DNA from: Eledone cirrhosa
Lineage: Eukaryota
Assembly (NCBI GenBank): GCA_964016885.1
Contig: OZ024753.1
Coordinates: 29,574,001-29,638,000 of the forward strand
Length of the DNA: 64,000 bases
Direction: 5' to 3'
Position numbers and translations under genes: made by a program. Below, piece by piece: positions 1-62,060 of the stretch. The notes below the pieces were generated by a model, which was not told where the DNA came from, searched no databases, and worked only from the letters and a program-made list of their open reading frames with translations. Each line of letters begins with the position of its first letter. Position 1 is the stretch's first letter.

Positions 1-880
1 GTAGAGACATAAACACACACTAGTGCAGTGGCATACACATACATACATATATATGTAGAGACATAAACACACACTAGTGCAGTGGCATACACATACATAC
101 ATATATATGTAGAGACATAAACACACACTAGTGCAGTGGCATACACATACATACATATATATGTAGAGACATAAACACACACTAGTGCAGTGACATACAC
201 ATACATACATATATATGTAGAGACATAAACACACACTAGTGCAGTGGCATACACATACATACATATATATGTAGAGACATAAACACACACTAGTGCAGTG
301 ACATACACATACATACATATATATGTAGAGACATAAACACACACTAGTGCAGTGGCATACACATACATACATATATATGTAGAGACATAAACACACACTA
401 GTGCAGTGGCATACACATACATACATATATATGTAGAGACATAAACACACACTAGTGCAGTGACACATACATACATACATATATGTGTAGAGACATAAAT
501 ACACACTAGTGCAGTGGCACATACATACATACATATGTAGAGACATAAACACACACTAGTGCAGTGACATATACATACATATATATGTAGAGACATAAAC
601 ACACGCTAGTGCAGTGACACATACATACATATATATCTAGAGACATAAACACACACTAGTGCAGTGACACATACATACATATATATCTAGAGACATAAAC
701 ACACACTAGTGCAGTGGCATATACATACATATATATGTAGAGACATAAACACACACTAGTGCGGTGACATATACATACATATATATCTAGAGACATAAAC
801 ACACACTAGTGCAGTGGCATATGCATACATACACAGAGAAACACACTAGTGCAACGACATATAGATACATACACATATAG
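1..880. repeat. Minisatellite with a 54-bp unit (gtagagacataaacacacactagtgcagtggcatacacatacatacatatatat) shortening to about 50 bp; runs off the window start
   Basis: About 16 directly visible tandem copies. Confidence 0.95.

Positions 881-6687: not shown

Positions 6688-6690
<3 letters not shown>

Positions 6691-6754
<64 letters not shown>
6691..6754. repeat. (GATA)16 microsatellite at the 3' end of Tx1 element A
   Basis: Direct observation. Confidence 0.95.
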
Positions 6755-6755
<1 letters not shown>

Positions 6756-6985
6756 ATTTCTATTTATTTGCCACGAGGGCACAAAAGAAGGGGACATTTA
6801 CACAGTGGGGGAGTTTACATAAATCGAGTAAAGAAAAAGGAATAACAATAATAATATAACAATAAAAAGTCCTCAAAAGGGAGGGGGCGTGTTGGGGATT
6901 GCACATACCCCCGAAAAGTGTGCAACTCTTTTCGCGGGGGAAGCCCAGAGAGGAGGCGCTCCCCCTTTCCTCTTCACTTCTTCAC

Positions 6986-9900
6986 CTACAGAACAATGTA
7001 GAGAGAAGGCCCATTTACACGGGCCATTCTCGCTTCTTTCACCCACCTTTCATAAAACTGTCTGGGACCAAGCACTTCTCTCTCCATCCTGATTCTTCTT
7101 CCGAAGTGGTATCGGAAGAAGTAAACCAGGTGATGGCCGGAGAGAAAGTCACCCGACCTCAGACCTTTCAGGCGCGTCCACCACACAACCTCTTTCATCA
7201 TGGCTATTACGCACAGAAAGACCGCCTCTGCTTCATTTCTGAAGGGAGGAGGCGGCTTGATGTTCACCACAGACTCGGCGGTTAATCGAATCGGCGCCAC
7301 ACGCGACAGCAGTCGTTCGACGTAGCCCCACAGATCGGCAACGCCCGGGCAGTGTACCAGTGCATGCGCAACGGTTTCCTCGTCGCGCACGCATCTGGGA
7401 CAGATCTTTTTCGCGGGATCCCTGCCCGGGCGCCCGTGTCTGTAGAGCTTTTCTCGAACGGGCAGAGCCCCCCGGTAACACTGCCAGGCTAGGGACCTCT
7501 GGAAGTTGTCCATGGGTCCCGGGCCGAAAGTTCTACCGAACAGGCTGGCCAGTTCGTCCTCCTCCATGCCTAGCGACTCTCCAAGGGTGTCGTCGCCCCT
7601 GCTAGCCACCAACCCTCTATAGAATGTCGAGGTGGATTCTCCACTGACAGTCGGGTCCGCTTGCCAGATAGCCGTGAGCGCCTGGGCACACTCAGTGTGC
7701 CAGTTGCCCAGTTTTCTCGGTCTTTGCTTCACCCAGGATTGCAGTTCGGTGAGCGAGACGAGCTGTGAGAAGGCTCGCCTCACAAACGGGGCCCACACCG
7801 GCTGACCGTTGAGGAATACCTGTAGATGCCGTAGCCTCAATGCGTGCCTACGCATCAACAGCCACGGCATACCCAGCCCTCCTTTCGAAGGGTGCTGGCA
7901 GCAGATGGATCTCCTCACCATGGGAGGCCGCTTCTTCCAGAGGAACTGGAAGAGCATGCGTTCCATGATGGTGAGCTTTTCCTTGGGGCAAGGCACGACG
8001 GTCAGGCGGTAGTAGATGACGGACGCTATGTAAGCGTTCGTCACCTCCGCCCGACCTTTCAGTGATAGTTTGCACTTGGCCCACTTCTGGGTCAGCGCAA
8101 ACACCCTGCTCGTCACCTCGCCCCAATTCTTCTCCACCTGGAGGTCCGGTCCGAACCAGACCCCGAGCAGCTTCACCGGGCCCTCCGTCCACCGCCCGAC
8201 GACACCGTCTAACGGCATCGGTTTGCCCCTCCACGTTGCGAGTTGCAAACCGACTGACTTGTCCTGGTTCAGCTTAGCCCCCGTCAGCCTTTCGTATTCC
8301 TCCAGTAGGGTGGCGATCGCCCCGATTTCCGAGGCGTCCGCCACCATTACTGTTACGTCGTCGGCATAGGCCGAGACCGCTTTGTGCAATCCCGGTTCCA
8401 GGAGTATGCCCCGCAGCAACTCCAACTTCCGCAGCAGTGGCTCGAGAGTCAATACGTACAGAAGGGAGGAGAGGGGGCACCCCTGTCTGATGGATCGGGT
8501 GATTTGAAACGGCTCCGAGAGGTAGCCGTTTACTTTAATCCTAGAGTAGATGTTGCCACTGTGCATGGCAGAAATCCAGCCCCTGAAAACGGGTCCGAAG
8601 CCCGCCGCCGCTAGCACCGCATCCAGGTAACCATGGTCGACCCTATCGAACGCCTTAGATTGATCCAAGTTGATCAGGGCCCCACCAAAGCCGGGTTCGT
8701 AGCCAACCCTCTCTATGATGTATCGCATGAGGTGGAGGTTGTCGTGAATGGACCTGGACGGGATAGCGCATGTCTGCGCGTCTCCCACCAAACCACCCAC
8801 CACAAGCGCCAACCTCTTCGCCAACACCTTGGCCAAAATCTGTAACTCTGCATTCAGCAGAGTTATGGGCCTAAAGTTACTTAAGTCGTCCCCCTTGCTC
8901 TCGTCCTTCCTCACTAGCGTGACCACGCCCTTGGTCACAGAACAGGGAATTCTCCCGTTCTGTTGCCAGTTGCAATAGACAGCCTCGAGGAGTTCGGAGA
9001 ACAAGACCGGCATAGCTAAATAAAGTTCGTATGGTAGACCATCGAGACCCGGGGATTTGCGTCTGCTGCATTGGCTGAGCGCTTCCCCGATTTCAGTGGC
9101 TGTGATTGGCCCTTCGCAGCACTCCGCTTCGCCGCTCGAAAGACGCGGTAGACCGTCGAGGTATGGACCGAAGTCCACATCCCCGTCCGGCCCCCCGCCA
9201 CCTCCGAACAGTCGAGCAAAGTGCCTTTGAAAGGTCTCGCACATTCGCTCAGGTTCAAGGATCACCCGTCCATCCTGGTCTCGCAAAGACCGAATGGTGG
9301 ATTTAATCCCACTCTTGGCTTCTGTCACGCGGGCCCAGCTAACAGCTTTGGTCCCCTCGTTTCCTAAAGCACGTATTTTACTTCGGACAACGCAGCCTTC
9401 GTGCTTCGCGTCAAAGAACTGGCTCAATGCCGTTCTCGTCGCTAACACTCTGGCTACGTCTCCGCTCCTAATCGCCTCTTCTAGTTTATCTGTTAACTCC
9501 CTTTCCCTCCTATTTCTATTCGCCGCTAGTTCCTTACTGTAACCTATCGAACTTACTCTAATCTCTCTCTTTAGAGATATCCACCACCTACTGTTGACGA
9601 TCGCTCCCGTCAACCGCATCTTAACTAAGCTACTAATCCGGTTTCTGTAATCTTTCTTTGTCGGTAAGGACAAGTTCATCTTCCAGTAACCGGGACCCTG
9701 TCTATGCGTTCTATCAAGGTTGACCACGCAGGTCACTAATTTGTGATCTGAATAGCCAACCATGATCAGTTCTGGACAACTAAATACGTCCCTATCCTTA
9801 CTCCTAACCAAAAACCTATCTAGGTACGATCTAGATTGTCCACTGCGGTTTGCCCAGGTCCAGGTTGGCGCAGTTGGACAATCTAGTCGAAATCTATCGA

Positions 9901-10415
9901 CCAGGTCGAATCGATCGAGTAACCCCTTGAGGCTGCTACACCCCCCTCTATCGGGACATGCCCCTGCATAGTCCCAACGCGCATCTAGGATTCCATTCCA
10001 GTCCCCCACTAAAAGCAGGGAACGCGACGTTCCTAGAAAAGTCTCCAGACGTTGGAAGAAGTCGGCTCTCTCCGCCCCGAAGGGAGCATAAAGACCGACC
10101 AGTCTGAAAGCCCCGCCTTCACCACCTCCGACGTCCAGCACCAGTAATCGACCCCCCGGGTCCGAGTGAACAATCTGTACGTCGAGAGTCAGACGTTTAT
10201 CCAGCAGTACGGCAACTCCCCCCCCCCGCCTCCGGGTTGACAGAGAGATGCGTGCATCTCAAAGTCATCGAAGGCGGGCGCAGCTGTCTCACGCTGCTGA
10301 TCCGACTCTCGCAAACAACCATCACATCTATACTTTGTGACCTGAGGTCACTTAGAAGCTTTGCTTGCTTCCAAGCTGAGCTCAGGCCACGCGCGTTCAA
10401 ACAGCCAACTCTCAA
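6986..10415 (-). CDS. Tx1 ORF2: AP endonuclease, reverse transcriptase and C-terminal zinc finger; two 1-nt deficits near 10281 and 10220
   Basis: APE motifs LNARGL, GDWN, SYLDR, SDH; KSPGLDG, FRPITLLN, DQSKAFDRV, QGCPLS, YADD; CPRC..HALVHC; 1051-aa open stretch 6986-10141. Confidence 0.92.
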
Positions 10416-10420
10416 TTGAT

Positions 10421-12255
10421 CTATTTTGGTGTTGAAAGTGAAGAAAGAAAAGCACTTACCTCTCCGGGTTGCGTAATTTCCATGGCATCAGGTGTGTTGG
10501 GTGGAGGGATGTTTTGTGGTGGTGTGGGGGTACACGTGTGTGGTGGGGTTGGGGTATTTGGAGTTGTGTCAGGGAGAGGGGCGGTTATGGGGAAATCTTT
10601 CAAGAGGACGCGATTCAACGGTTTTAAACAGGGGGGGCTCACGTCCCGTCTAAATTGTTCTTTTAAGGAACGATAAAGGTCCAGAGGGACCTTTATCATT
10701 TTTAAATGGGTGAAGTTCTCTGTTGAGATAAAGTTTGGCCCTTCGGTCTGCACCATAGGGTTATTGTTTATTAATTTAACCAGTTTTTTGTTTTCTTTAT
10801 TTATATATGTGTATTGCAACGTCTTTTTTTGTGATGCTGTCAATGTTTCGGAGAGGGGAGGCGCAGATTTATTTTTGTTTGTTGAGGGTGGGGTGTTTTT
10901 GATTGGAGTTGGTGTTTGTGTGTGGGTTATTTGTGGTGTGCTGGGTGTGTGTTTTCTTTTTTTTCTTTTAACTTGTCTGAAGGCTTCTCCTCCTTCTTCT
11001 TCAGAAGTTGGGGGAAACTCTTCAGCGCTAGGTGGGAGGGACGTGTTGTGTGGTTGTTTTTTTTTGCGGGAGGGGTAGATTTGTTACTGTTTTTTTTATT
11101 ATTTGTTTGGAATGGGGTTTGTGGTGGTGGTGGTGGTAATGTTTGTGTCGTGCTTGTGGTTGGTGATGGTGGTGGTGATGTTTGTGTTGTGGTTGGTGGT
11201 GGTGATTTTTGTGTCGTGCTTGTGTTTGGTGCTGGTGGTGGTGATGTTTGTGTTGTGTTTGTGGTTGGTGGTGTCTGTATTTTGTTTGCTGTGTGTGGTA
11301 TTAGTGTATTTTTGGAGGTGGGTGGTGCTGGTGTACTGTTTGTGGTGGGTGTGGGCAATAGTCCTTTTTGGGGGATACGTTTCGGGCAGTTAGCCTTAAC
11401 GTGTCCCCTTTCCATGCATAAATAGCATGCTGGTCTTCTCCCCTCTACAATTATGTCTATTGGGGTAAGGTCATCCAGCCAGATGCGATCCGGGATTTGT
11501 GCTATTCTTTCGGGCCTCATTTGGACTAGTATGTCGAGGCCCATTCCCAGGAACGCATCTCCAGTTGCCTTCCCCATTGACAGCATAGTGTCTTCGCCCA
11601 TATCAATGAAGCCAGCAATAGCCCACCAGAAGTCCATTGTGGGCAGCATTGTTTTTACTTTTACTCTCTGTGTTCTTCTACCCATGTAGGAGGGATAGAA
11701 GCTATATGTTGTCGACGAGAGTGGGCTTAGGGAAAGCTTCTCCGCCGTTTCTTTGTCTCTTGTTAGGACCGAAATGCTGCCATAGAGTCGGTCCTTTCGT
11801 ATGAAGAGAATATTCTTCATATAGTCTTTTAGGACTAACTCTATTTCCATTTGGCTGGGCTGTGCTGGCTTTCTTGTCTGGTTCAGTATAGTTCTGTATA
11901 TAACTGTGTTTTCTGCTCTGGCTTTCTTGAATTCTGGGGGGGAGTTAATGGAAAACATTCCGTTCTCCCCCAAAACAATATGTTTCTTTGCTTCGGCCAG
12001 TTTTTCTCTGGCGGCAGTTAGGTCAATTGGTGTGTATGTAATGGATTGCTTTGTTTTCTGGGCGAAAGTTGCCCTGTCGTTATTTGTATTATTTTCTGTT
12101 TGTTTGTTTTCTGTTTGCTCATTTTCCTTAACATTTGTTTTTTCATTTTGTTTGTTTGTTTCAATGTCTAATTTTGTTGTAATTATTTTTTGTTCTTCAG
12201 ACTTGGGGGGCGTGGCAGAGCTAATGGCAGACATGTCTGCCATCTTTTCCGCCAT
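10421..12255 (-). CDS. Tx1 ORF1 (gag-like zinc-knuckle protein); one frameshift, probably in the T-run near 11060
   Basis: CYLCMERGHVKANC knuckle, P/T-rich linker; both halves align with element B ORF1. Confidence 0.85.
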
Positions 12256-12456
12256 GCTGCCAAGAAAGAAATTTTTCGGCAAAAATAGATATTTATTTTA
12301 CCCCCTAAAAAGGGGGTAAATGCAAAAATGTTTCCCTAAATAACAGGGGTTAGTGTTCCAAATGTGTTGCACTAAAAAATTTATCCGGTACTTACAATAG
12401 TAAGGGTAAATCCCGATGGAATAGCGGAGCCGATGCGAAGCGTGTCTTACTCTATC

Positions 12457-12458
<2 letters not shown>

Positions 12459-12489
<31 letters not shown>
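12459..12489. repeat. (GATA)n tract separating Tx1 elements A and B
   Basis: Direct observation. Confidence 0.95.
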
Positions 12490-12703
12490 TTCTTTATTTA
12501 CCATAAAGGCATAAAAAGAAGGGACAAATACAAAGGGGGAGTTTACATATAATCGAGTAAAAAGGGTGTAACATGAAAATAATCGAAAATAACCTCAAAA
12601 GGGAGGGGACGTGATGGGGGTTGCACACACCCCCGAAAAAGTGTGCAATCCTTTGCCCGGGGAGCACATGGAGAAGGTGCTCCCCTCTCCTTCACTTCTT
12701 TAC

Positions 12704-15262
12704 CTACAGGATGGTATACAGAGAAGGCCCATTTGCACGAGCCATTCTCGCCACTATCACCCACCTTTCATAAAACTGCCTGTGGCCAAGCACCTCTCTC
12801 TCCATTCTTATCCTTCTTCCGAAGTGATATCGGAAGAAGTAGACCAGACTTTGGCCAGAGAGGAAGTTGCCTGACCTCAGACCTTTTAATCGTGTCCACC
12901 AAACAACCTCTTTCAACATGACTATTACGCACAGAAAAACCGCCTTTGCTTCCTTTGTGAAGAGGGGAGGCGGCTTGATTATCATCACGGACTCGGCGGT
13001 CAATCGAATCGGCGCCACCCGCGACAGCAGTCGTTCGGCGTAGCCGTCGGGAGGCATCGGTCTGCCTCTCCACGTTCCGAGTTGCAGCCCGATGGATTTT
13101 TCCCGGTTCAGTTTCGCTCCTGACAACCTTTCGTAATCCTCCAGTAAGGAACCGATCGCCTCGATCTCCGAGTCGGTCGATACCATTACTGTTACGTCAT
13201 CGGCGTAGGCCGACACCGCTTTGCTCAATCCTGGTTCCAGGGGGATACCCTGCAACAACTCCAACTTCCTCAGTAAAGGCTCGAGAGTCAATACGTACAG
13301 AAGGGAGGAGAGAGGACACCCCTGTCGAATGGATCGTGTGATTTCGAACGCCTTCGAAAGGTAGCCATTCACCTTGATCCTAGAACAGATGTGGTTGCTA
13401 TGTAAGGCAGTGATCCAGCCTCTGAAAACAGGACCGAACCCAGCCGCCGCTAGCACCGCATCCAGGTAACCATGGTCGACCCTATCGAAGGCCTTAGACT
13501 GATCCAAGTTGATCAGGGCCCCACCGAAGCCGGGTTTGTTGTCAACCCTCTCTATGATGTATCGCATGAGGTGGAGATTATCGTGAATGGACCTGGATGG
13601 GATAGCACATGTCTGCGCATCTCCCACCAGGCTACCCACGACAAGCGCCAACCTCTTTGCTAACACCTTGGCCAAAATCTTTAACTCTGTGTTTAGCAGG
13701 GTTATGGGCCGAAAATTATTTATACTATCCCCCTTGTTCTCGTCCTTCCTCACCAGCGAGACTACGCCCTTGGCTACAGAGCAAGGAATTCTCCCGTTCT
13801 GCTGCCAATTGCAGTAGACCGCTTCGAGGAGTTCGGAGAAGAAGACCGGCATTGCTAAATAAAGTTCGTAAGGTATACCATCGAGACCTGGAGATTTGCG
13901 TCTGCTGCATTGGCTCAGCGCATCCCCGATCTCATCAGCCGAGATTGGTCCCTCGCAGGACTCTGCCACTTCGCTCGAGAGACGCGGCAGGCCGTCGAGG
14001 TATGGACCGAAATCCACGTCCCCGCCCGGACCCTCGCCTCCCCCGAATAATCGGGCAAAGTGCCTTTGAAAGGCCTCGCACATCTGCTTAGGCTCCAGGA
14101 TCACCCGTCCATCCTCGTCTTGCAACGACCGGATCGTGGATCGATTTCCACTCTTAGCTTCTGTCACGCGGGCCCAGCCAACGGCTTTGGCCCCCTCATT
14201 ACCTAGAGCACGTATTTTACTTCGAATGACGCAGCCTTCGTGCTTTACATCGAAAAACTGGTTCAAGGCCGTCCTCGATGCCAGCACTCTGGCCACATCT
14301 TCGCTCTTGATTGCCTCTTCTAATTTACCTGTTAATTCTTTCTCGTTTCTATTCCTATCGGCAGCTAACATCTTGCTATAACTTATTGATTCTGTTCTAA
14401 TCTCTCTTTTGAGAGATGCCCACCATCGGTTGTTGACGATTGCACCCGTCAACCTCTCCTTAACTAATCTGCTAATCCGGTTTCTGTAAGTCTCTTTTGC
14501 CGGTAAAGACAAATTAAGTTTCCAGTAACCGGGACCCTGTTTATGTGTTTTCTCGAGATTGACTACGCTGGTCACTAATTTGTGATCCGTATAGCCAACC
14601 GTGAGCATTTCTGGACAGCTTAATATGTCCCTATCCTTACTTCTAACTAAGAATCTATCTAAGTACGATCTAGATTGACCACTATGGTTCGTCCAAGTCC
14701 AGGTAGGCACAGTTGGAAAATCTAATGGATATCTATCGACCAAGTTAAAACGGTCGAGTAACCCCTTGAGGCTGTTACACACCCCTCTATTAGGACATGC
14801 TCCTGCATAATCCCAACGTGCATCTAGGATGTCATTCCAATCCCCCGCTAGAAGCAGGGAACGCGACGTTCCCAGAAAAGTCTCCAAACGCTGGAAGAAG
14901 TCGGGCCGTTCAGCTCCGAAAGGGGAGTAGACGGCGACCAGTCTCAAGGCCGCACCTTCACTACTGCCAACGTCTAGTACCAACAAACGACCCTCCGGGT
15001 CCGAGTGAACAACCTGTACGGTAAGACCCAGGTGTTTTTGCAGCAGTACGACAACCCCACCCCCACCTCCAGGTTGACAGAGAGATGCATGCACCTCAAA
15101 GTCATCGAAGGTAGGGGCCAGCTGCCGCACGACGCTGATCCGAGTCTCACAGATAACCATTACATTTATACCACATGACCTGAGGTCATTTAGAAGCTTT
15201 GCTTGCTTCCAAGTTGAGCCCAGGCCACGTGCATTCAAACATCCTACTCTTAACACATCCAT
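12704..15262 (-). CDS. Tx1 ORF2 (APE-RT), 852 aa, lacking about 293 aa including the zinc finger
   Basis: MDVLRVGCLNARGL, GDWN, TDH, YADD; junction PPDG/YAERLL near 13044. Confidence 0.92.
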   Translation of the reverse strand: MDVLRVGCLNARGLGSTWKQAKLLNDLRSCGINVMVICETRISVVRQLAPTFDDFEVHASLCQPGGGGGVVVLLQKHLGLTVQVVHSDPEGRLLVLDVGSSEGAALRLVAVYSPFGAERPDFFQRLETFLGTSRSLLLAGDWNDILDARWDYAGACPNRGVCNSLKGLLDRFNLVDRYPLDFPTVPTWTWTNHSGQSRSYLDRFLVRSKDRDILSCPEMLTVGYTDHKLVTSVVNLEKTHKQGPGYWKLNLSLPAKETYRNRISRLVKERLTGAIVNNRWWASLKREIRTESISYSKMLAADRNRNEKELTGKLEEAIKSEDVARVLASRTALNQFFDVKHEGCVIRSKIRALGNEGAKAVGWARVTEAKSGNRSTIRSLQDEDGRVILEPKQMCEAFQRHFARLFGGGEGPGGDVDFGPYLDGLPRLSSEVAESCEGPISADEIGDALSQCSRRKSPGLDGIPYELYLAMPVFFSELLEAVYCNWQQNGRIPCSVAKGVVSLVRKDENKGDSINNFRPITLLNTELKILAKVLAKRLALVVGSLVGDAQTCAIPSRSIHDNLHLMRYIIERVDNKPGFGGALINLDQSKAFDRVDHGYLDAVLAAAGFGPVFRGWITALHSNHICSRIKVNGYLSKAFEITRSIRQGCPLSSLLYVLTLEPLLRKLELLQGIPLEPGLSKAVSAYADDVTVMVSTDSEIEAIGSLLEDYERLSGAKLNREKSIGLQLGTWRGRPMPPDGYAERLLSRVAPIRLTAESVMIIKPPPLFTKEAKAVFLCVIVMLKEVVWWTRLKGLRSGNFLSGQSLVYFFRYHFGRRIRMEREVLGHRQFYERWVIVARMARANGPSLYTIL

Positions 15263-15295
15263 GTGGGCGGGAGAGCCAAAGGAGAGTGTAGAGAC

Positions 15296-16999
15296 CTACC
15301 TTTCTGCTTCCCGGGGTTCGGGTCGCACGACTTCCATGGGGTCGGGGGTGTTGGGTGAAGGGGTGTCTTGTGGTGGTGTGGGGTCGTCAGTGTGTGGTGG
15401 GGTTGGGGTGTTTGGAGTTGTGTTGGGGAGGGGAAGGGGAGGGGGAAAGCTTTTTAGTAGGACGTGGTTTATGGGTTTGACAGAGGGTGGTCCTACGTCC
15501 TCCTTAAAATCCTTTTTTAGTTTTTGGTAGAGGTTCATTGGGATCTTTATTAATTTTAAATGTGGGTAGTTTTCTGAAGAAACAAAGTTTACACCTTCGG
15601 TTTGTACCGAAGGATTATTGTTTATGAGTTCATTTAATTTATTATTGTTTCTGTTGATGTAAGTATAGTGTAATGTCTTTTTTTCAGATGGTGTGAGTGT
15701 TTCGAAGAGGGGAGGGGCAGGTTTAGTTTTGTTTGTTGCTGGAGGGGTGTTTTGTGTTTTGTTGGATTGTGTTGACATTTGGGTGGGGGTTGTTTGGCCT
15801 TGTGTGTTTTGCACATGTTTTCTTTTTTTCCTTTTAATCTGTCTGAAGGACTCCGTTTCTTCCTCCGAATTCGTTGGGTTATCTTCAGTGTTGGAGGGAA
15901 GAGGTATGTTTGCTGGTAATGTTTCCGTGTTGGTTTTCTTTGTGGAGGAGATGGATGTCACTATGTTAGACTGTGTTGTGTGTTGTGGCTGCGGTGGTTG
16001 TGTTGTTTTATTGAGTGAGGGGTTGGGTGGGCCTGTATTTTGTTTTGGGGTAATGTGTTGTGACTGTTTGTGTTGTGGTGGTGGTGTAGTTTTACTGAGG
16101 GACGGGTTGGGTGGGACTGAGTTTTGTTGTTTGTTTATCTGTTGTGGTGGTGGTGGTGGAGCTGGTGTTGGTAGCAGGGTTTTCTTTTTGTTGAGTTGGG
16201 GACAAGCCGCCTTCAGGTGCCCTCTGCCTGCACAGATATGACAGGACGGCTTTCTCCCCTCCACGCTAATGTTTATATACCCGTGGCCCTCTAATAGGAT
16301 TCTGTCGGGTATTTGGGCGATGCGTTCAGGCTTCATTTGCACTACAAGTTCTATACCTGTTCCACTGAACGCATTGCCTGTGATTTTCCCAATGGAAATC
16401 ACGTTGTCATTCGCTGGATCGATGAAGCCAGCTATGAGCCAGCAGTAGTCCACATCTGGCATCATTGCATCCAGCCATATGCGTTGAGTTCTTTTACCCA
16501 TATAAGATGGATAAAAGGTAAAATTTTTCGAACGAATCGGTGACAAAGCACATTTTTTTGCTGCCGATTCGTTCTTCATAATAATCGCTAGGCTTCCATA
16601 CAGTCTGTCTTTTCTTATGAAAGTGGTTTCATTAAGTACTTCTGTAAGTACTGTTTTGATTTCTGTTTGAGTTGGCTGTTCAGGTTTTATAGAAATGTTG
16701 TTAATGGTGCGGAAAACGACCGTTCGACTTTCAATGTCTTTGGTGAGTTCTTGAGGCATTTTTACCGATAAAATACCATTTTCTCCTTCAGTTATGTATT
16801 GTTTGGCGTCTGTAATTCTTTGTGCCACATCTGAAATATTTCCAGGTATATATGTCAAAGATTTCTTTGTTGTTTGTGCAAATGAAATATTATTGGTGTT
16901 GACTTTGTCGTCTGCTTTGCTTTCTGTTATGATGTTGTTTTCAAATGTTATTTTTGTGTTTGTCGTGTCTTTGTTTGTGGTATTAATATTGTCATGCAA
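15296..16999 (-). CDS. Tx1 ORF1 (zinc-knuckle protein); true start uncertain, possibly further upstream
   Basis: CHICAGRGHLKAAC; IRKDRLYGS and FYPSYMG shared with element A ORF1. Confidence 0.85.
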   Translation of the reverse strand: MHDNINTTNKDTTNTKITFENNIITESKADDKVNTNNISFAQTTKKSLTYIPGNISDVAQRITDAKQYITEGENGILSVKMPQELTKDIESRTVVFRTINNISIKPEQPTQTEIKTVLTEVLNETTFIRKDRLYGSLAIIMKNESAAKKCALSPIRSKNFTFYPSYMGKRTQRIWLDAMMPDVDYCWLIAGFIDPANDNVISIGKITGNAFSGTGIELVVQMKPERIAQIPDRILLEGHGYINISVEGRKPSCHICAGRGHLKAACPQLNKKKTLLPTPAPPPPPQQINKQQNSVPPNPSLSKTTPPPQHKQSQHITPKQNTGPPNPSLNKTTQPPQPQHTTQSNIVTSISSTKKTNTETLPANIPLPSNTEDNPTNSEEETESFRQIKRKKRKHVQNTQGQTTPTQMSTQSNKTQNTPPATNKTKPAPPLFETLTPSEKKTLHYTYINRNNNKLNELINNNPSVQTEGVNFVSSENYPHLKLIKIPMNLYQKLKKDFKEDVGPPSVKPINHVLLKSFPPPLPLPNTTPNTPTPPHTDDPTPPQDTPSPNTPDPMEVVRPEPREAER

Positions 17000-17425
17000 T
17001 TTTTCAAATTTTTTTTTTTTTTCGTTGTTGGAATCAATGTCCAGATTTGTGTTTTCGTCATTTTTCTCCGCAGATTCGTCTGTTTTTATTTTATTTTTTC
17101 CTTCCTTCTCTATGACGTTAGTTGGGAAGGAAGGGGGACTAAAGCGTGCGAGCTTACAACTCTTACCGCTGTCCCCCCACCACTATTTTCGTTAGCTTTG
17201 TTTAACATTTCTGTCAGACGATTGAAATTTTTTATGCCACAAAATTTTTAAAAACAGGTTTTTCACCCCTAGGAGGGGTAAAGATGAGCTGACCCACCGC
17301 CTGACAGCTACACAATAGTATCAAAATTAAAATTGAACTTACAAAATTTCCGCAATAAATTTGAACAAAACTTCTGCGCGAAGTGAATTACATCTACGCT
17401 GTAGAACAGACGACAGCTAGATTAT

Positions 17426-17519
<94 letters not shown>
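17426..17519. repeat. (GATA)n tract at the 5' end of element B
   Basis: Direct observation. Confidence 0.95.
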
Positions 17520-17521
<2 letters not shown>

Positions 17522-17594
17522 TATTATTAATCTAAAATATCTAAAAAAAAATTAACGAAAAGAGATAAGGAATTATTATTATTACTATTATTAT

Positions 17595-17800
17595 TGAGTT
17601 CAAATCCCGCCGAGGTTAACTTTGCCTTTCATCCTTACGGGGTCGATAAAATAAAGTACCAGTAATGTACTGGGGTAATTGCTGGCCTTGTGCCAAAAAT
17701 AGAAACAATTATTATTATTATTGTAATGCACTGGGGTCGATTTAATCGACTTTCCTTTCCCCCTAAATTGCTGGCCTTGTGCCTAAAGTAGAAATCATTA
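17595..17800 (+). mobile_element. Nin-domain tRNA SINE fragments (OK-like)
   Basis: gagttcaaatcccgccgagg...gcctttcatccttacggggtcgataaaataaagtaccag. Confidence 0.8.
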
Positions 17801-18980: not shown

Positions 18981-19124
18981 TATATATTACAGTGTGCGAT
19001 ACATAGACTGATATTTTCAAAGTTATAATTATTTGGCAATGGAGTCAAGTTACTTCTTATCAAAATCATGACAGACATCGAAAACAAATATATGGGATTA
19101 TATTCACACGATGTGTTATTTTCT

Positions 19125-19515
19125 AATAATTGTTTCTACTTTTGGCACAAGACCAGCAAATACACAGTACATTACTGGTACTTTATTTTATCGACCCCGT
19201 AAGGATGAAAGGCAAAGTTAACCTTGGCGGGATTTGAACTCAGACATTAAGGGCCGTAACTCTTTGCTGCAAAGCATGGCGTCCGACCCTCTACCTACAC
19301 TGCCAATCCACCGTTATTTTCTAATAATTGTTTCTACTTCTGGCACAAGGCCAGCAATTACCCAGTACATTACTGGTACTTTATTTTATCGACCCCGTAA
19401 GGATGAAAGGCAAAGTTAACCTCGGCGGGATTTGAACTCAGACCATAAAGGGCCTTAACTCTTTGCTGCAAAGCATGGGTCCGACCTTCTACCTATACTG
19501 CCAAACCAACGCCCT
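19125..19515 (-). mobile_element. Two head-to-tail Nin-domain SINEs
   Basis: Two units of about 195 bp, each with B box and Nin core. Confidence 0.85.
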
Positions 19516-19516
19516 T

Positions 19517-19633
19517 ATTTTCTAATAATGATATATACTATTTTCTAATAATGATATATACTATTTTCTAATAATAATATATACTATTTTCTAATAATGA
19601 TATATACTATTTTCTAATAATGATATATACTAT
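19517..19633. repeat. 23-bp tandem repeat, about 5 copies
   Basis: Unit tctaataatgatatatactattt. Confidence 0.9.
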
Positions 19634-47160: not shown

Positions 47161-47319
47161 AGTAGTAGTAGTAGCAGTAACAACAACTACAAACTCCTAA
47201 ACAATGTTGAATACTCTTGGTAAATCAATCTAGTTAACAGTACAAGGGAAATAAATAGTACCAGCCTCTTGTTTTACAGTTATTTTGTTTCGACGATCTT
47301 AACCTATTTGAAACATATA

Positions 47320-47775
47320 AAATAATAATTGTTTCTACATTTGGCACAAGGCCAGCAATCAATCAGTGCATTACTGGTATAAAATAATAATTGTTTCTAC
47401 TTTAGGCACAAGGCCAGCAATTACACAGTACATTACTGGTACTTTATTTTATCGACCCCGTAAGGATGAAAGGCAAAGTTAACCTCGGCGGGATTTGAAC
47501 TCAGATCGTAAAGGGACGTAACTATGCTGGAAAGCATGGCGTCCGACTCTCTACCGATACTGCCAATCCACTGCCATATGGATATAATTGTTTCTACTAT
47601 TGGCACAAGGCCAGAAATTAACCAGTACATTACTGGTACTTTATTTTATCGACCCCGTAAGGATGAAAGGCAAAGTTAACCTCGGCCGGATTTGAACTCA
47701 GAATGGCAAGGGCCGTAACTCTATGCGTCAAAGCATGGCGTCCCACCCTCTACCGATACTGCCAATCCACCGCCT
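47320..47775 (-). mobile_element. Tandem Nin-domain SINEs (two full, one partial)
   Basis: Repeated units of about 190 bp. Confidence 0.85.
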
Positions 47776-61611: not shown

Positions 61612-62060
61612 ATGTGTGTTGTATTTGGTCCTAGATGTATGTATTACCTGCCTGTGTGTTGTAGGTAGCCCTAGATGTATGTATTACCTGCTTATGTATT
61701 GCATGTGGTCCTAGATGTATGTATTACCTGATTTTGTGTTGTATGTGGTCCTAGATGTTTGTATTACCTGATTATGTGTTGTATGTGGTCCTAGATGTTT
61801 GTATTACCTGCTTATGTGTTGTATGTGGTCCTAAATGTATGTATTACTTGCCTGTGTGTTGTATGTGGTCCTAGATGTGTGTGCTACCTGCTTATGTGTT
61901 GCATGTAGTCCTAGATATGTGTATTACCTGCTTATGTGTTGTATGTGGTCCTAGATGTGTGTATTACCTGCTTATGTGTTGTATGTGGTCATAGATGTGT
62001 GTATTATCTGATTATGTGTTGTATGTGGTCCTAGATGTGTGTGTTACCCGCTTCTGTGTT
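61612..62060. repeat. 40-bp minisatellite, about 11 copies, inside the hAT
   Basis: Unit gtatgtggtcctagatgtgtgtattacctgcttatgtgtt. Confidence 0.92.

What the first reader, a model, noticed from the sequence alone, without database searches (positions are those of the whole stretch)
6691..17519. Two divergent Tx1 retrotransposons stacked in one (GATA)n microsatellite: candidate GATA-specific family
Seen: (GATA)16 - element A - (GATA)~8 - element B - (GATA)~23, both in the same orientation. Both end in AATAAA-(t)AGAAAT then (CTAT)n with no poly(A), and both 5' ends also abut GATA. ORF1s and 5'UTRs are strongly diverged, so this is not a local duplication. Known: Tx1-clade APE elements include target-specific families (Kibi and Koshi on microsatellites, Keno on U2, Dewa on tRNA arrays). 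Inference: the endonuclease is specific for (GATA)n. I do not know of a described cephalopod GATA-targeting Tx1.
Basis: partly seen in the sequence, partly recalled or inferred. Interest (0 to 1): 0.72.

Follow-up and report, generated by a model that had tools for sequence, protein, structure and literature searches.

The report
LINE family inserting into GATA repeats
Two broken copies of a very abundant, recently active jumping gene sit head to tail inside one GATA repeat, and nearly all sampled copies elsewhere in the genome have this repeat on both sides, so the family likely aims at it: a new landing site for a known kind of repeat-seeking element.

Summary
On the minus strand the window reads (TATC)23 - element B (about 4.9 kb) - (TATC)8 - element A (5.7 kb) - (TATC)16. 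Both are APE+RT LINEs with an AATAAA near the end and no poly(A). ORF2 is 82% identical between them and ORF1 41%.

- 29 of 30 full-length A-type 5' junctions and 25 of 29 B-type junctions abut TATC repeats. Background is 0.1-0.2% of positions.
- In 12 of 30 and 17 of 29 of these, no family member lies upstream.
- 13 of 17 5'-truncated copies also abut the repeat.
- One off-target copy sits at a lone TATC, with a 7-bp target duplication confirmed by 10 paralogous empty sites.
- 17 of 30 sampled (GATA)>=8 arrays touch a family member, always in one orientation.

About 9,900 3' ends were counted. A-type copies differ by 0.29%. A sister lineage with (ATT)n at both ends exists in the same genome.

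Not shown here: whether the endonuclease or RNA-tail pairing picks the repeat, and Tx1-clade membership, because no labelled references were available.

I found no paper naming GATA as a LINE target. The scan noted this family before, on other windows of this genome and in other genomes. Verdict: a new variant of a known kind.

The parts
6690..6754 (-). (TATC)16 in sense: array at the 3' end of element A (tail plus remaining target), followed by TTTGTATG and (TA)n
6755..12457 (-). Element A: full-length (5703 bp) copy of a very young subfamily. Sense 5' end is TGATAGAGTAAGACACGC; sense 3' end is AAATAAATAGAAATT
   Evidence: 0.21-0.42% substitutions to 11 other full-length copies
6755..6985 (-). 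3' UTR of A with conserved hairpin-forming segments and AATAAA 9 nt before the end
6986..10258 (-). A ORF2 (1090 aa open stretch): APE endonuclease, reverse transcriptase (YADD), C-terminal zinc-binding region. About 76 N-terminal residues are lost to a frame break compared with the 1166-aa form
10421..12297 (-). A ORF1, split by a frameshift into 456 aa (10927-12297) and 220 aa (10421-11083). One CCHC knuckle (CYLCMERGHVKANC); Pro/Thr-rich repeat region
12458..12489 (-). (TATC)8 between B's 3' end and A's 5' end; read as B's tail array into which A inserted
   Evidence: order inferred from ages
12490..17424 (-). Element B: older subfamily copy (about 4935 bp). The sense 5' end lies near TAATCTAGCTGTCG (within about 2 nt); the sense 3' end is AAATAAAGAAA
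12704..15295 (-). B ORF2 (863 aa): APE + RT. It lacks the part matching A residues 686-977, a private deletion
15299..17182 (-). B ORF1 (628 aa open stretch, CCHC knuckle CHICAGRGHLKAAC), in the same frame as ORF2 and separated from it by one stop
17426..17519 (-). (TATC)23 array at the 5' flank of B (target DNA)

Best explanation
Elements A and B are defective copies of two subfamilies of one APE-type LINE lineage whose copies carry (TATC)n on both sides genome-wide; the lineage likely integrates by target-primed reverse transcription specifically into this repeat, with the GATA strand predicted to be nicked just after GATA and the nicked end predicted to pair with UAUC units at the 3' end of the element RNA. 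Shown: the anatomy of both copies, the flanks of about 150 other copies, the fixed orientation, target-site duplications that begin with TATC, and the absence of poly(A). Inferred: B probably inserted first into a (TATC)n array. The very young A probably inserted later into B's tail array, splitting it into (TATC)8 on its 5' side and (TATC)16 on its 3' side. Each insertion recreates a TATC array downstream, so stacks would grow by self-seeding. Transcripts would end a few units into the downstream array, because AATAAA lies 8-10 nt before the junction, so the RNA would carry 1 to a few UAUC units. Second-strand joining looks microhomology-driven: the repeat register at the 5' junction varies among truncated copies. 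Which component reads the repeat (endonuclease, another ORF2p surface or RNA-DNA pairing) is not resolved; I favour both nicking preference and pairing.
For: Architecture:
- Exo_endo_phos (E 7.5e-08 and 1.1e-09) and RVT_1 (E 4.9e-24 and 3.1e-27) in both ORF2s.
- The best solved relative is human L1 ORF2p (164 bits).

Copy number and age:
- The 24-nt 3' end of A occurs 556 times, and 547 of these are followed by TATC.
- The C-type 18-mer occurs 9364 times, 8148 followed by TATC; the reversed-pattern controls gave 0.
- 12 full-length A copies differ by a mean of 0.29%.

5' flanks:
- A: 29/30 junctions have two or more TATC-phase units in the last 30 nt, and 12/30 have no family member within 400 nt upstream.
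- B lineage: 25/29 and 17/29 respectively (sequences).
- Background is 0.09-0.19% of positions.
- In the B lineage, 1-14 extra nt often separate the array from the element, so the array is target DNA and not part of the element.

5'-truncated copies:
- 13/17 abut TATC repeats, 7 of them in non-family DNA. L093 and L114 are further examples.

Target duplications:
- L082 has TATCTATATGTATTCC on both sides.
- L121 lies in another LINE's ORF at a single TATC. 10 of 11 paralogous copies read uninterrupted ...AACTATCTGTAAC-like sequence, giving a duplication of TATCTGT.

Target occupancy:
- Of the first 30 (GATA)>=8 arrays on C1, 17 touch a family member, all with sense = TATC. 13 have none within 1.5 kb.

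Competing repeats:
- (TA)n arrays are far commoner than GATA arrays in the window, yet only 2/29 B-lineage junctions sit on (TA)n.

Sister lineage:
- It has (ATT)n at its 3' end (10/10) and at its 5' flank (7/7 resolved).
Against: Not all copies are on target.
- 4/17 truncated copies (L121, L133, L142, L148) lack a 5' array.
- So do 4/29 B-lineage junctions: 2 on (TA)n and 2 on one-unit tails of upstream members.

Many 5' arrays (18/30 and 12/29) are tails of upstream family members. That is also what an encoded tail plus local duplication would give. L090 holds two tandem copies with the same truncation point, so some arrays grow by duplication and not by insertion.

Sampling was limited.
- Samples are the best-scoring hits or the first 30 places on contig C1, not random draws.
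- Two patterns required one TATC after the element; this excludes 2% and 13% of ends.
- The truncated-copy classes were read by eye.
- 3 of 30 loci lacked the probe and were not read.

No empty allele of this window's own locus, no RNA data and no biochemistry were available. The nick position rests on two duplications.
Confidence: 0.82

Rival explanations
1. Encoded tail plus passive accumulation. The element carries a templated (TATC)n tail and integrates more or less at random. 5' arrays are the tails of older upstream copies, and stacks arise by unequal crossing-over or segmental duplication between tails.
For: 18/30 A and 12/29 B-lineage 5' arrays are tails of an upstream member. L090 has tandem copies with identical truncation points. 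Off-target copies still carry 1-3 TATC units.
Against: 12/30 and 17/29 full-length copies, and 7 truncated copies, have a 5' TATC array with no member upstream. A and B in the window belong to different subfamilies, so they are not duplicates of each other. 13/30 long GATA arrays have no element, so targets exist independently. The duplication at L121 includes the host's own TATC.
Confidence: 0.05
2. The integration is targeted, but the selectivity is wholly RNA-guided. The endonuclease nicks loosely, and only nicks whose 3' end can pair with the UAUC repeats of the RNA are extended, so the tail and not the enzyme defines the target.
For: No poly(A) at any junction read. Duplications start exactly with TATC. 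At L121 the single TATC is fully accounted for by the host sequence, as expected if the RNA's UAUC paired with the primer and was not copied. The sister lineage's tail (ATT)n equals its flanking repeat.
Against: A tail that equals the target is expected under any mechanism of insertion into an array. The two lineages also differ in the endonuclease domain (45-62% identity against 78-85% in the RT core), so the contrast does not separate enzyme from tail. A 4-nt pairing as at L121 would allow very many off-target sites, yet most copies are in arrays. The literature view for this group credits the endonuclease (PMC4494074 and PMC3812793, passages read).
Confidence: 0.3
3. General AT-rich or microsatellite preference. 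The endonuclease likes TA-rich flexible DNA, and GATA arrays are just one of several such sites.
For: 2/29 B-lineage 5' junctions lie on (TA)n (L188, L199). Several A tails run into (TA)n, including the window's own copy.
Against: (TA)n and (AT)n arrays are many times commoner than GATA arrays in the window, yet 54 of 59 full-length junctions are on TATC. Orientation relative to the asymmetric repeat is fixed in all 17 occupied arrays.
Confidence: 0.05

Closest known systems
Kibi and Koshi (teleost Tx1-clade LINEs specific for (TC)n and (TTC)n; Kojima and Fujiwara 2004, seen only as cited in passages of PMC4494074 and PMC3812793)
   Same: APE-type LINE; copies sit inside one kind of microsatellite in one orientation; the 3' end is the target repeat instead of poly(A).
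   Different: The target is the tetranucleotide (TATC)n/(GATA)n. The host is an invertebrate, probably an octopod (nearest named protein is from Argonauta hians). Kinship to Kibi and Koshi was not tested.
Crocodilian Tx1 families on (TTCC)n/(TTTC)n (Tx1-1_Crp group; PMC4494074 section 15, passage read)
   Same: Tetranucleotide microsatellite preference. This lineage passes the paper's criterion of more than 20% of flanks carrying the repeat by a wide margin.
   Different: Different repeat, a polypyrimidine tract against the mixed TATC. Very different host. Here at least 9,900 ends and copies 0.3% apart.
Waldo (ACAY)n, Mino (AC)n (R1 clade) and Dong (TAA)n (PMC3812793, passage read)
   Same: Microsatellite-specific non-LTR elements.
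   Different: Other clades. Our ORF2 is nearest to L1-group proteins.
Sister lineage in the same genome ending in (ATT)n (lead from earlier scan notes)
   Same: Homologous 3' UTR end (..CCCTTGTGGC.AATAAA..), same ORF2 layout, 67% ORF2 identity, own tail repeat at both flanks.
   Different: Tail and flanking repeat are (ATT)n. The endonuclease part is only 45-62% identical.

Membership tests
Microsatellite-target-specific non-LTR retrotransposons (criterion of PMC4494074: the same sequence type in more than 20% of flanks) | The same repeat at the 5' flank of copies, not only at the 3' end | tested here: met
   29/30 and 25/29 full-length junctions; 13/17 truncated copies; background 0.09-0.19%
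Microsatellite-target-specific non-LTR retrotransposons (criterion of PMC4494074: the same sequence type in more than 20% of flanks) | Fixed orientation relative to an asymmetric repeat | tested here: met
   All members adjacent to 17 occupied arrays have sense = TATC
Microsatellite-target-specific non-LTR retrotransposons (criterion of PMC4494074: the same sequence type in more than 20% of flanks) | Sequence-specific cleavage by the element's endonuclease | not testable with these tools
   Needs a nicking assay. Only two duplications starting with TATC are in hand
Non-LTR retrotransposon (LINE) moving by target-primed reverse transcription | APE endonuclease plus reverse transcriptase in ORF2; 5' truncation; target-site duplication; no LTRs | tested here: met
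   Pfam; truncated copies; duplications at L082 and L121
L1 group | ORF2 closest to L1-type proteins; C-terminal zinc-binding region; ORF1 with a CCHC knuckle | tested here: met
   Human L1 ORF2p E 3e-47 against R2 1e-22. zf-RVT scores 25.2 bits, below the 27.5 cut-off, in A, but is on record for relatives. The CCHC motifs are read
Tx1 clade | RT-domain phylogeny grouping with Tx1 references (Tx1L, Keno, Kibi, Koshi) | not testable with these tools
   No labelled Tx1 reference sequence could be obtained. The best named non-cephalopod relative is a Ciona pol-like protein at 27%. Octopus 'L1-Tx1' families are reported (PMC13282606 table 1 and supplement row) but are not linked to this element by sequence
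Kibi / Koshi families | Target (TC)n or (TTC)n | tested here: not met
   The target here is (TATC)n. It works like them but is not filed as a member

The most novel reading that the evidence does not exclude
Target choice in this LINE group is set by a short guide at the 3' end of the element's own RNA. The UAUC (or AUU) units pair with the nicked repeat, so sister lineages retargeted simply by changing their tail. That would make a naturally programmable, RNA-guided integration system with two young, abundant test cases in one genome.
Probability: 0.25. Interest if true: 0.8.

Novelty: new variant of a known kind. Interest (0 to 1): 0.5.

Why it matters
Microsatellite-homing LINEs are known for (TC)n, (TTC)n, (TTCC)n/(TTTC)n, (ACAY)n, (AC)n, (TAA)n and (TG)n (passages of PMC4494074, PMC3812793, PMC4640811). 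I found no paper naming (GATA)n as a target.

This lineage is unusually well suited to study.
- About 10,000 3' ends were counted.
- One subfamily's copies are 0.3% apart.
- About half of the sampled long GATA arrays in the genome are occupied.
- A sister lineage in the same genome uses (ATT)n instead.

That pair offers a natural swap experiment on a long-open question: how APE-type LINEs read their targets, by enzyme or by RNA pairing. It also means that GATA microsatellites in this genome are largely shaped by one transposon family, which matters for marker design and repeat annotation in cephalopods.

Tried and rejected
- RNA evidence: no RNA holder listed. The look-up of sequencing runs returned 4 runs of unknown kind from one study, kept as contigs. 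I did not lay them, because contigs cannot show RNA ends.
- Clade placement: the protein atlas gave only unnamed RVT/APE clusters. The named hits are plant L1-like proteins auto-labelled 'TX1', which are no reference. PMC4640811 passages mention Ciona only for another clade.
- B as an amplified deletion derivative: rejected. Only the window copy spans the deletion junction (1 of 40).
- 3' UTR structure: RNAalifold finds conserved hairpins with a few compensatory changes. However, 9 of the 12 sequences are one subfamily, so I make no structural claim.
- The first blast boundaries against A were inexact for diverged copies and were redone with longer references. Three apparent truncations proved to be internal deletions and were dropped from the count.
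- The 5' ends of 10 longer C-type copies were only partly resolved and are not counted.
- Literature searches, passages of five papers and one supplement contained no statement on GATA as a LINE target. Repbase and Dfam could not be consulted.
Full report
**What is in the window**

TRF and direct reading show three GATA-type arrays. On the + strand these are (AGAT)16 at 6690-6754, (AGAT)8 at 12458-12489 and (TAGA)23.5 at 17426-17519. They are the only arrays of that kind in the 64 kb.

Between them lie two elements that read on the minus strand.
- A is at 6755-12457 (5703 bp).
- B runs from 12490 to about 17424.

In sense the order is (TATC)23 - B - (TATC)8 - A - (TATC)16 - TTTGTATG(TA)n. A ends AAATAAATAGAAATT|TATC and B ends AAATAAAGAAA|TCTATC. 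There is no poly(A).

**The proteins**

ORF2 of both carries Exo_endo_phos and RVT_1. A also has a weak zf-RVT match (25.2 bits, below the 27.5 cut-off). Both ORF1s have one CCHC knuckle. The best solved relative is human L1 ORF2p (E 3e-47). The nearest named protein is from Argonauta hians (63% identity over 62% of the query).

A and B are not duplicates of each other. ORF2 is 82% identical and ORF1 41%, and the 5' 740 nt of A finds nothing in B.

Both are broken.
- A has a frameshifted ORF1 and a lost ORF2 N-terminus.
- B lacks about 292 aa of ORF2. Only the window copy spans that junction among 40 scored hits.

**The family in the genome**

The window lies in a 3.0-Gb assembly (G000, contig C13).

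Copy number:
- The last 24 nt of A occur 556 times, and 547 of these are followed by TATC.
- An 18-nt degenerate 3' end of a commoner subfamily group ('C-type') occurs 9364 times, 8148 followed by TATC.
- Reversed-pattern controls gave 0.

Age and integrity of the A subfamily:
- Eleven other full-length A copies plus the window copy are 5702-5712 bp long.
- They differ by a mean of 0.29% (66 pairs, range 0.07-0.68%).
- Their indels are mostly in homopolymer runs.
- One of the 12 has both frames open: ORF1 625 aa and ORF2 1166 aa stop-to-stop, overlapping by 64 nt.
- Of the first 30 A-type ends on contig C1, 28 extend beyond 1.5 kb, so the subfamily is mostly long.

The B lineage is older. Its 5' 200 nt finds copies at 81-98% identity.

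**The decisive test: 5' flanks**

They are not.

| Sample | TATC repeat at 5' flank | No family 3' end within 400 nt upstream | Calls |
|---|---|---|---|
| 30 full-length A junctions | 29/30 | 12/30 | 58; sequences in 12 |
| 29 B-lineage junctions (own locus excluded) | 25/29 | 17/29 | 58; sequences in 45 |
| Rest of the window (same criterion) | 0.09-0.19% of positions | not applicable | 59 |

The criterion is two or more tandem TATC-phase units in the last 30 nt.
- The 30th A junction sits on a one-unit tail of an upstream member.
- The four B-lineage exceptions are two junctions on (TA)n and two on one-unit tails of upstream members.
- In the B lineage, 1-14 extra nucleotides often lie between the array and the conserved start. 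This marks the array as target DNA and not as part of the element.

**5'-truncated copies**

I took the first 30 C-type ends on C1.
- 10 were longer than 1.5 kb.
- 3 had internal deletions.
- 17 were truncated.

Of the 17 truncated copies:
- 13 abut TATC repeats. Six of these repeats are tails of upstream members (two of them very short), and 7 lie in other DNA.
- 4 do not abut the repeat (L121, L133, L142, L148), and those have tails of only 1-3 units.

These classes were read by eye. The repeat register at truncated junctions varies and often shows microhomology. All 30 full-length A junctions, in contrast, read ATCT|TGATAG.

**Target-site duplications**

- A 188-bp A-type copy (L082) is flanked by TATCTATATGTATTCC on both sides.
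- The off-target copy L121 lies inside the ORF of an unrelated LINE. I searched with the host flank by reference. Ten of 11 other host copies read through as ...AACCTAACTATCTGTAAC-like sequence with a single TATC, and one lacked the search motif. The duplication is therefore TATCTGT, and it starts exactly at the host's TATC.

From these two cases I infer a nick on the GATA strand just after GATA. I also infer priming by a GATA-3' end paired to UAUC at the RNA end. At L121 no extra TATC was added, which fits pairing better than copying.

**Seen from the target side**

An anchored pattern finds 2751 (GATA)>=8 array ends in the genome. Among the first 30 on C1:
- 15 are the tail of a family member.
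- 6 have a member's 5' junction on the other side.
- 17 touch at least one member.
- 13 have none within 1.5 kb.

Every adjacent member has sense = TATC. Stacking is common: 14 of 30 and 15 of 30 A-type loci carry a further member next to the tail. Full-length copies spaced about 5.73 kb apart occur at several places. One locus (L090) has two copies with the same truncation point, so duplication also contributes.

**How the window's stack arose (inferred)**

B is older and carries a private deletion. A is 0.2-0.4% from its siblings. A most likely landed in B's tail array and split it into the present (TATC)8 and (TATC)16.

**A sister lineage**

Following a lead from earlier scan notes, I searched the genome with P0003, an unnamed protein that is 41% identical to A's ORF2. 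It found a lineage with these features:
- ORF2 (1143-1150 aa) is open in all 40 scored hits.
- The 3' end is AATAAATGAAATC followed by (ATT)n in 10 of 10 loci, 8 of them with four or more units.
- The 5' end GACGAAAGTGGATGTAC is preceded by (ATT)5 or more in 7 of 7 resolved loci; an eighth was too diverged to resolve.

Its ORF2 is 67% identical to the TATC lineage: 45-62% in the endonuclease part and 78-85% in the RT core. Both the tail and the enzyme differ, so this contrast does not tell which one picks the repeat.

**Literature**

- Passages of PMC4494074 (introduction, target analysis, section 15), PMC3812793 (section 5) and PMC4640811 list (TC)n, (TTC)n, (TTCC)n/(TTTC)n, (ACAY)n, (AC)n, (TAA)n and (TG)n as LINE targets. 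None names GATA.
- PMC13282606 reports 13 recently active L1-Tx1 families (421 insertions) in Octopus vulgaris (table 1), and 80 families covering 56 Mb in its supplement. It says nothing on targets.
- PMC8967140 mentions L1-Tx1 only as an expanded class.
- Three full-text searches gave no paper on a GATA-targeting LINE.
- Repbase and Dfam could not be checked.

**Earlier scan notes**

Notes on other windows of this genome and on other genomes reached the same reading. I treated them as leads only.

**Verdict**

The determinant of specificity and the Tx1 label remain open. This is a new variant of a known kind.

Noticed in passing
window 17572-17700 (minus strand); also 19115-19529 and 47316-47441: A short SINE-like repeat (…CGGCGGGATTTGAACTC followed by (AAT)n in sense) lies just upstream of B's 5' array in the same orientation. 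The same repeat occurs next to tails in L012, L019, L217 and L219. Earlier notes link it to the ATT lineage.
   Followed up: no
L214-L231 (G000, ten loci): Sister LINE lineage with (ATT)n at both ends. All 40 scored hits have an open 1143-1150-aa ORF2. Several copies run from (ATT)n into other trinucleotide repeats: (TAG)n, (TTG)n, (TTC)n.
   Followed up: partly
L012, just after the A-type tail: An 11-nt piece (AAAAAGAAAGT) matching the extreme 3' end of another subfamily is flanked by a 28-nt direct repeat beginning TATCTATC. It looks like an extremely 5'-truncated insertion with its target duplication.
   Followed up: no
L090: Two tandem 5'-truncated copies share the same truncation point, each preceded by (TATC)n. 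This points to local duplication. A third copy is joined directly to a neighbour's AATAAAGAA end without a tail.
   Followed up: no
L202-L212: The host of the off-target copy L121 is another abundant LINE (1619 first-look candidates, copies 94-96% alike) with an APE-type coding region.
   Followed up: no
window 6755-7014 and 12490-12749 (alignment A1): The 3' UTRs of all subfamilies keep two hairpin-forming segments (for example GGGTTGCACA...TGTGYWAYCC) with a few compensatory changes. This could be the RT recognition element.
   Followed up: partly
window 11119-11351 and 15993-16167: Both ORF1s contain imperfect 27-84-nt tandem repeats that encode a Pro/Thr-rich low-complexity stretch after the zinc knuckle.
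   Followed up: no
window 1-833 and 61615-62060: A 54-bp satellite (15.9 copies) and a 40-bp satellite (11.1 copies). The window is otherwise very rich in (TA)n and (TG)n arrays.
   Followed up: no
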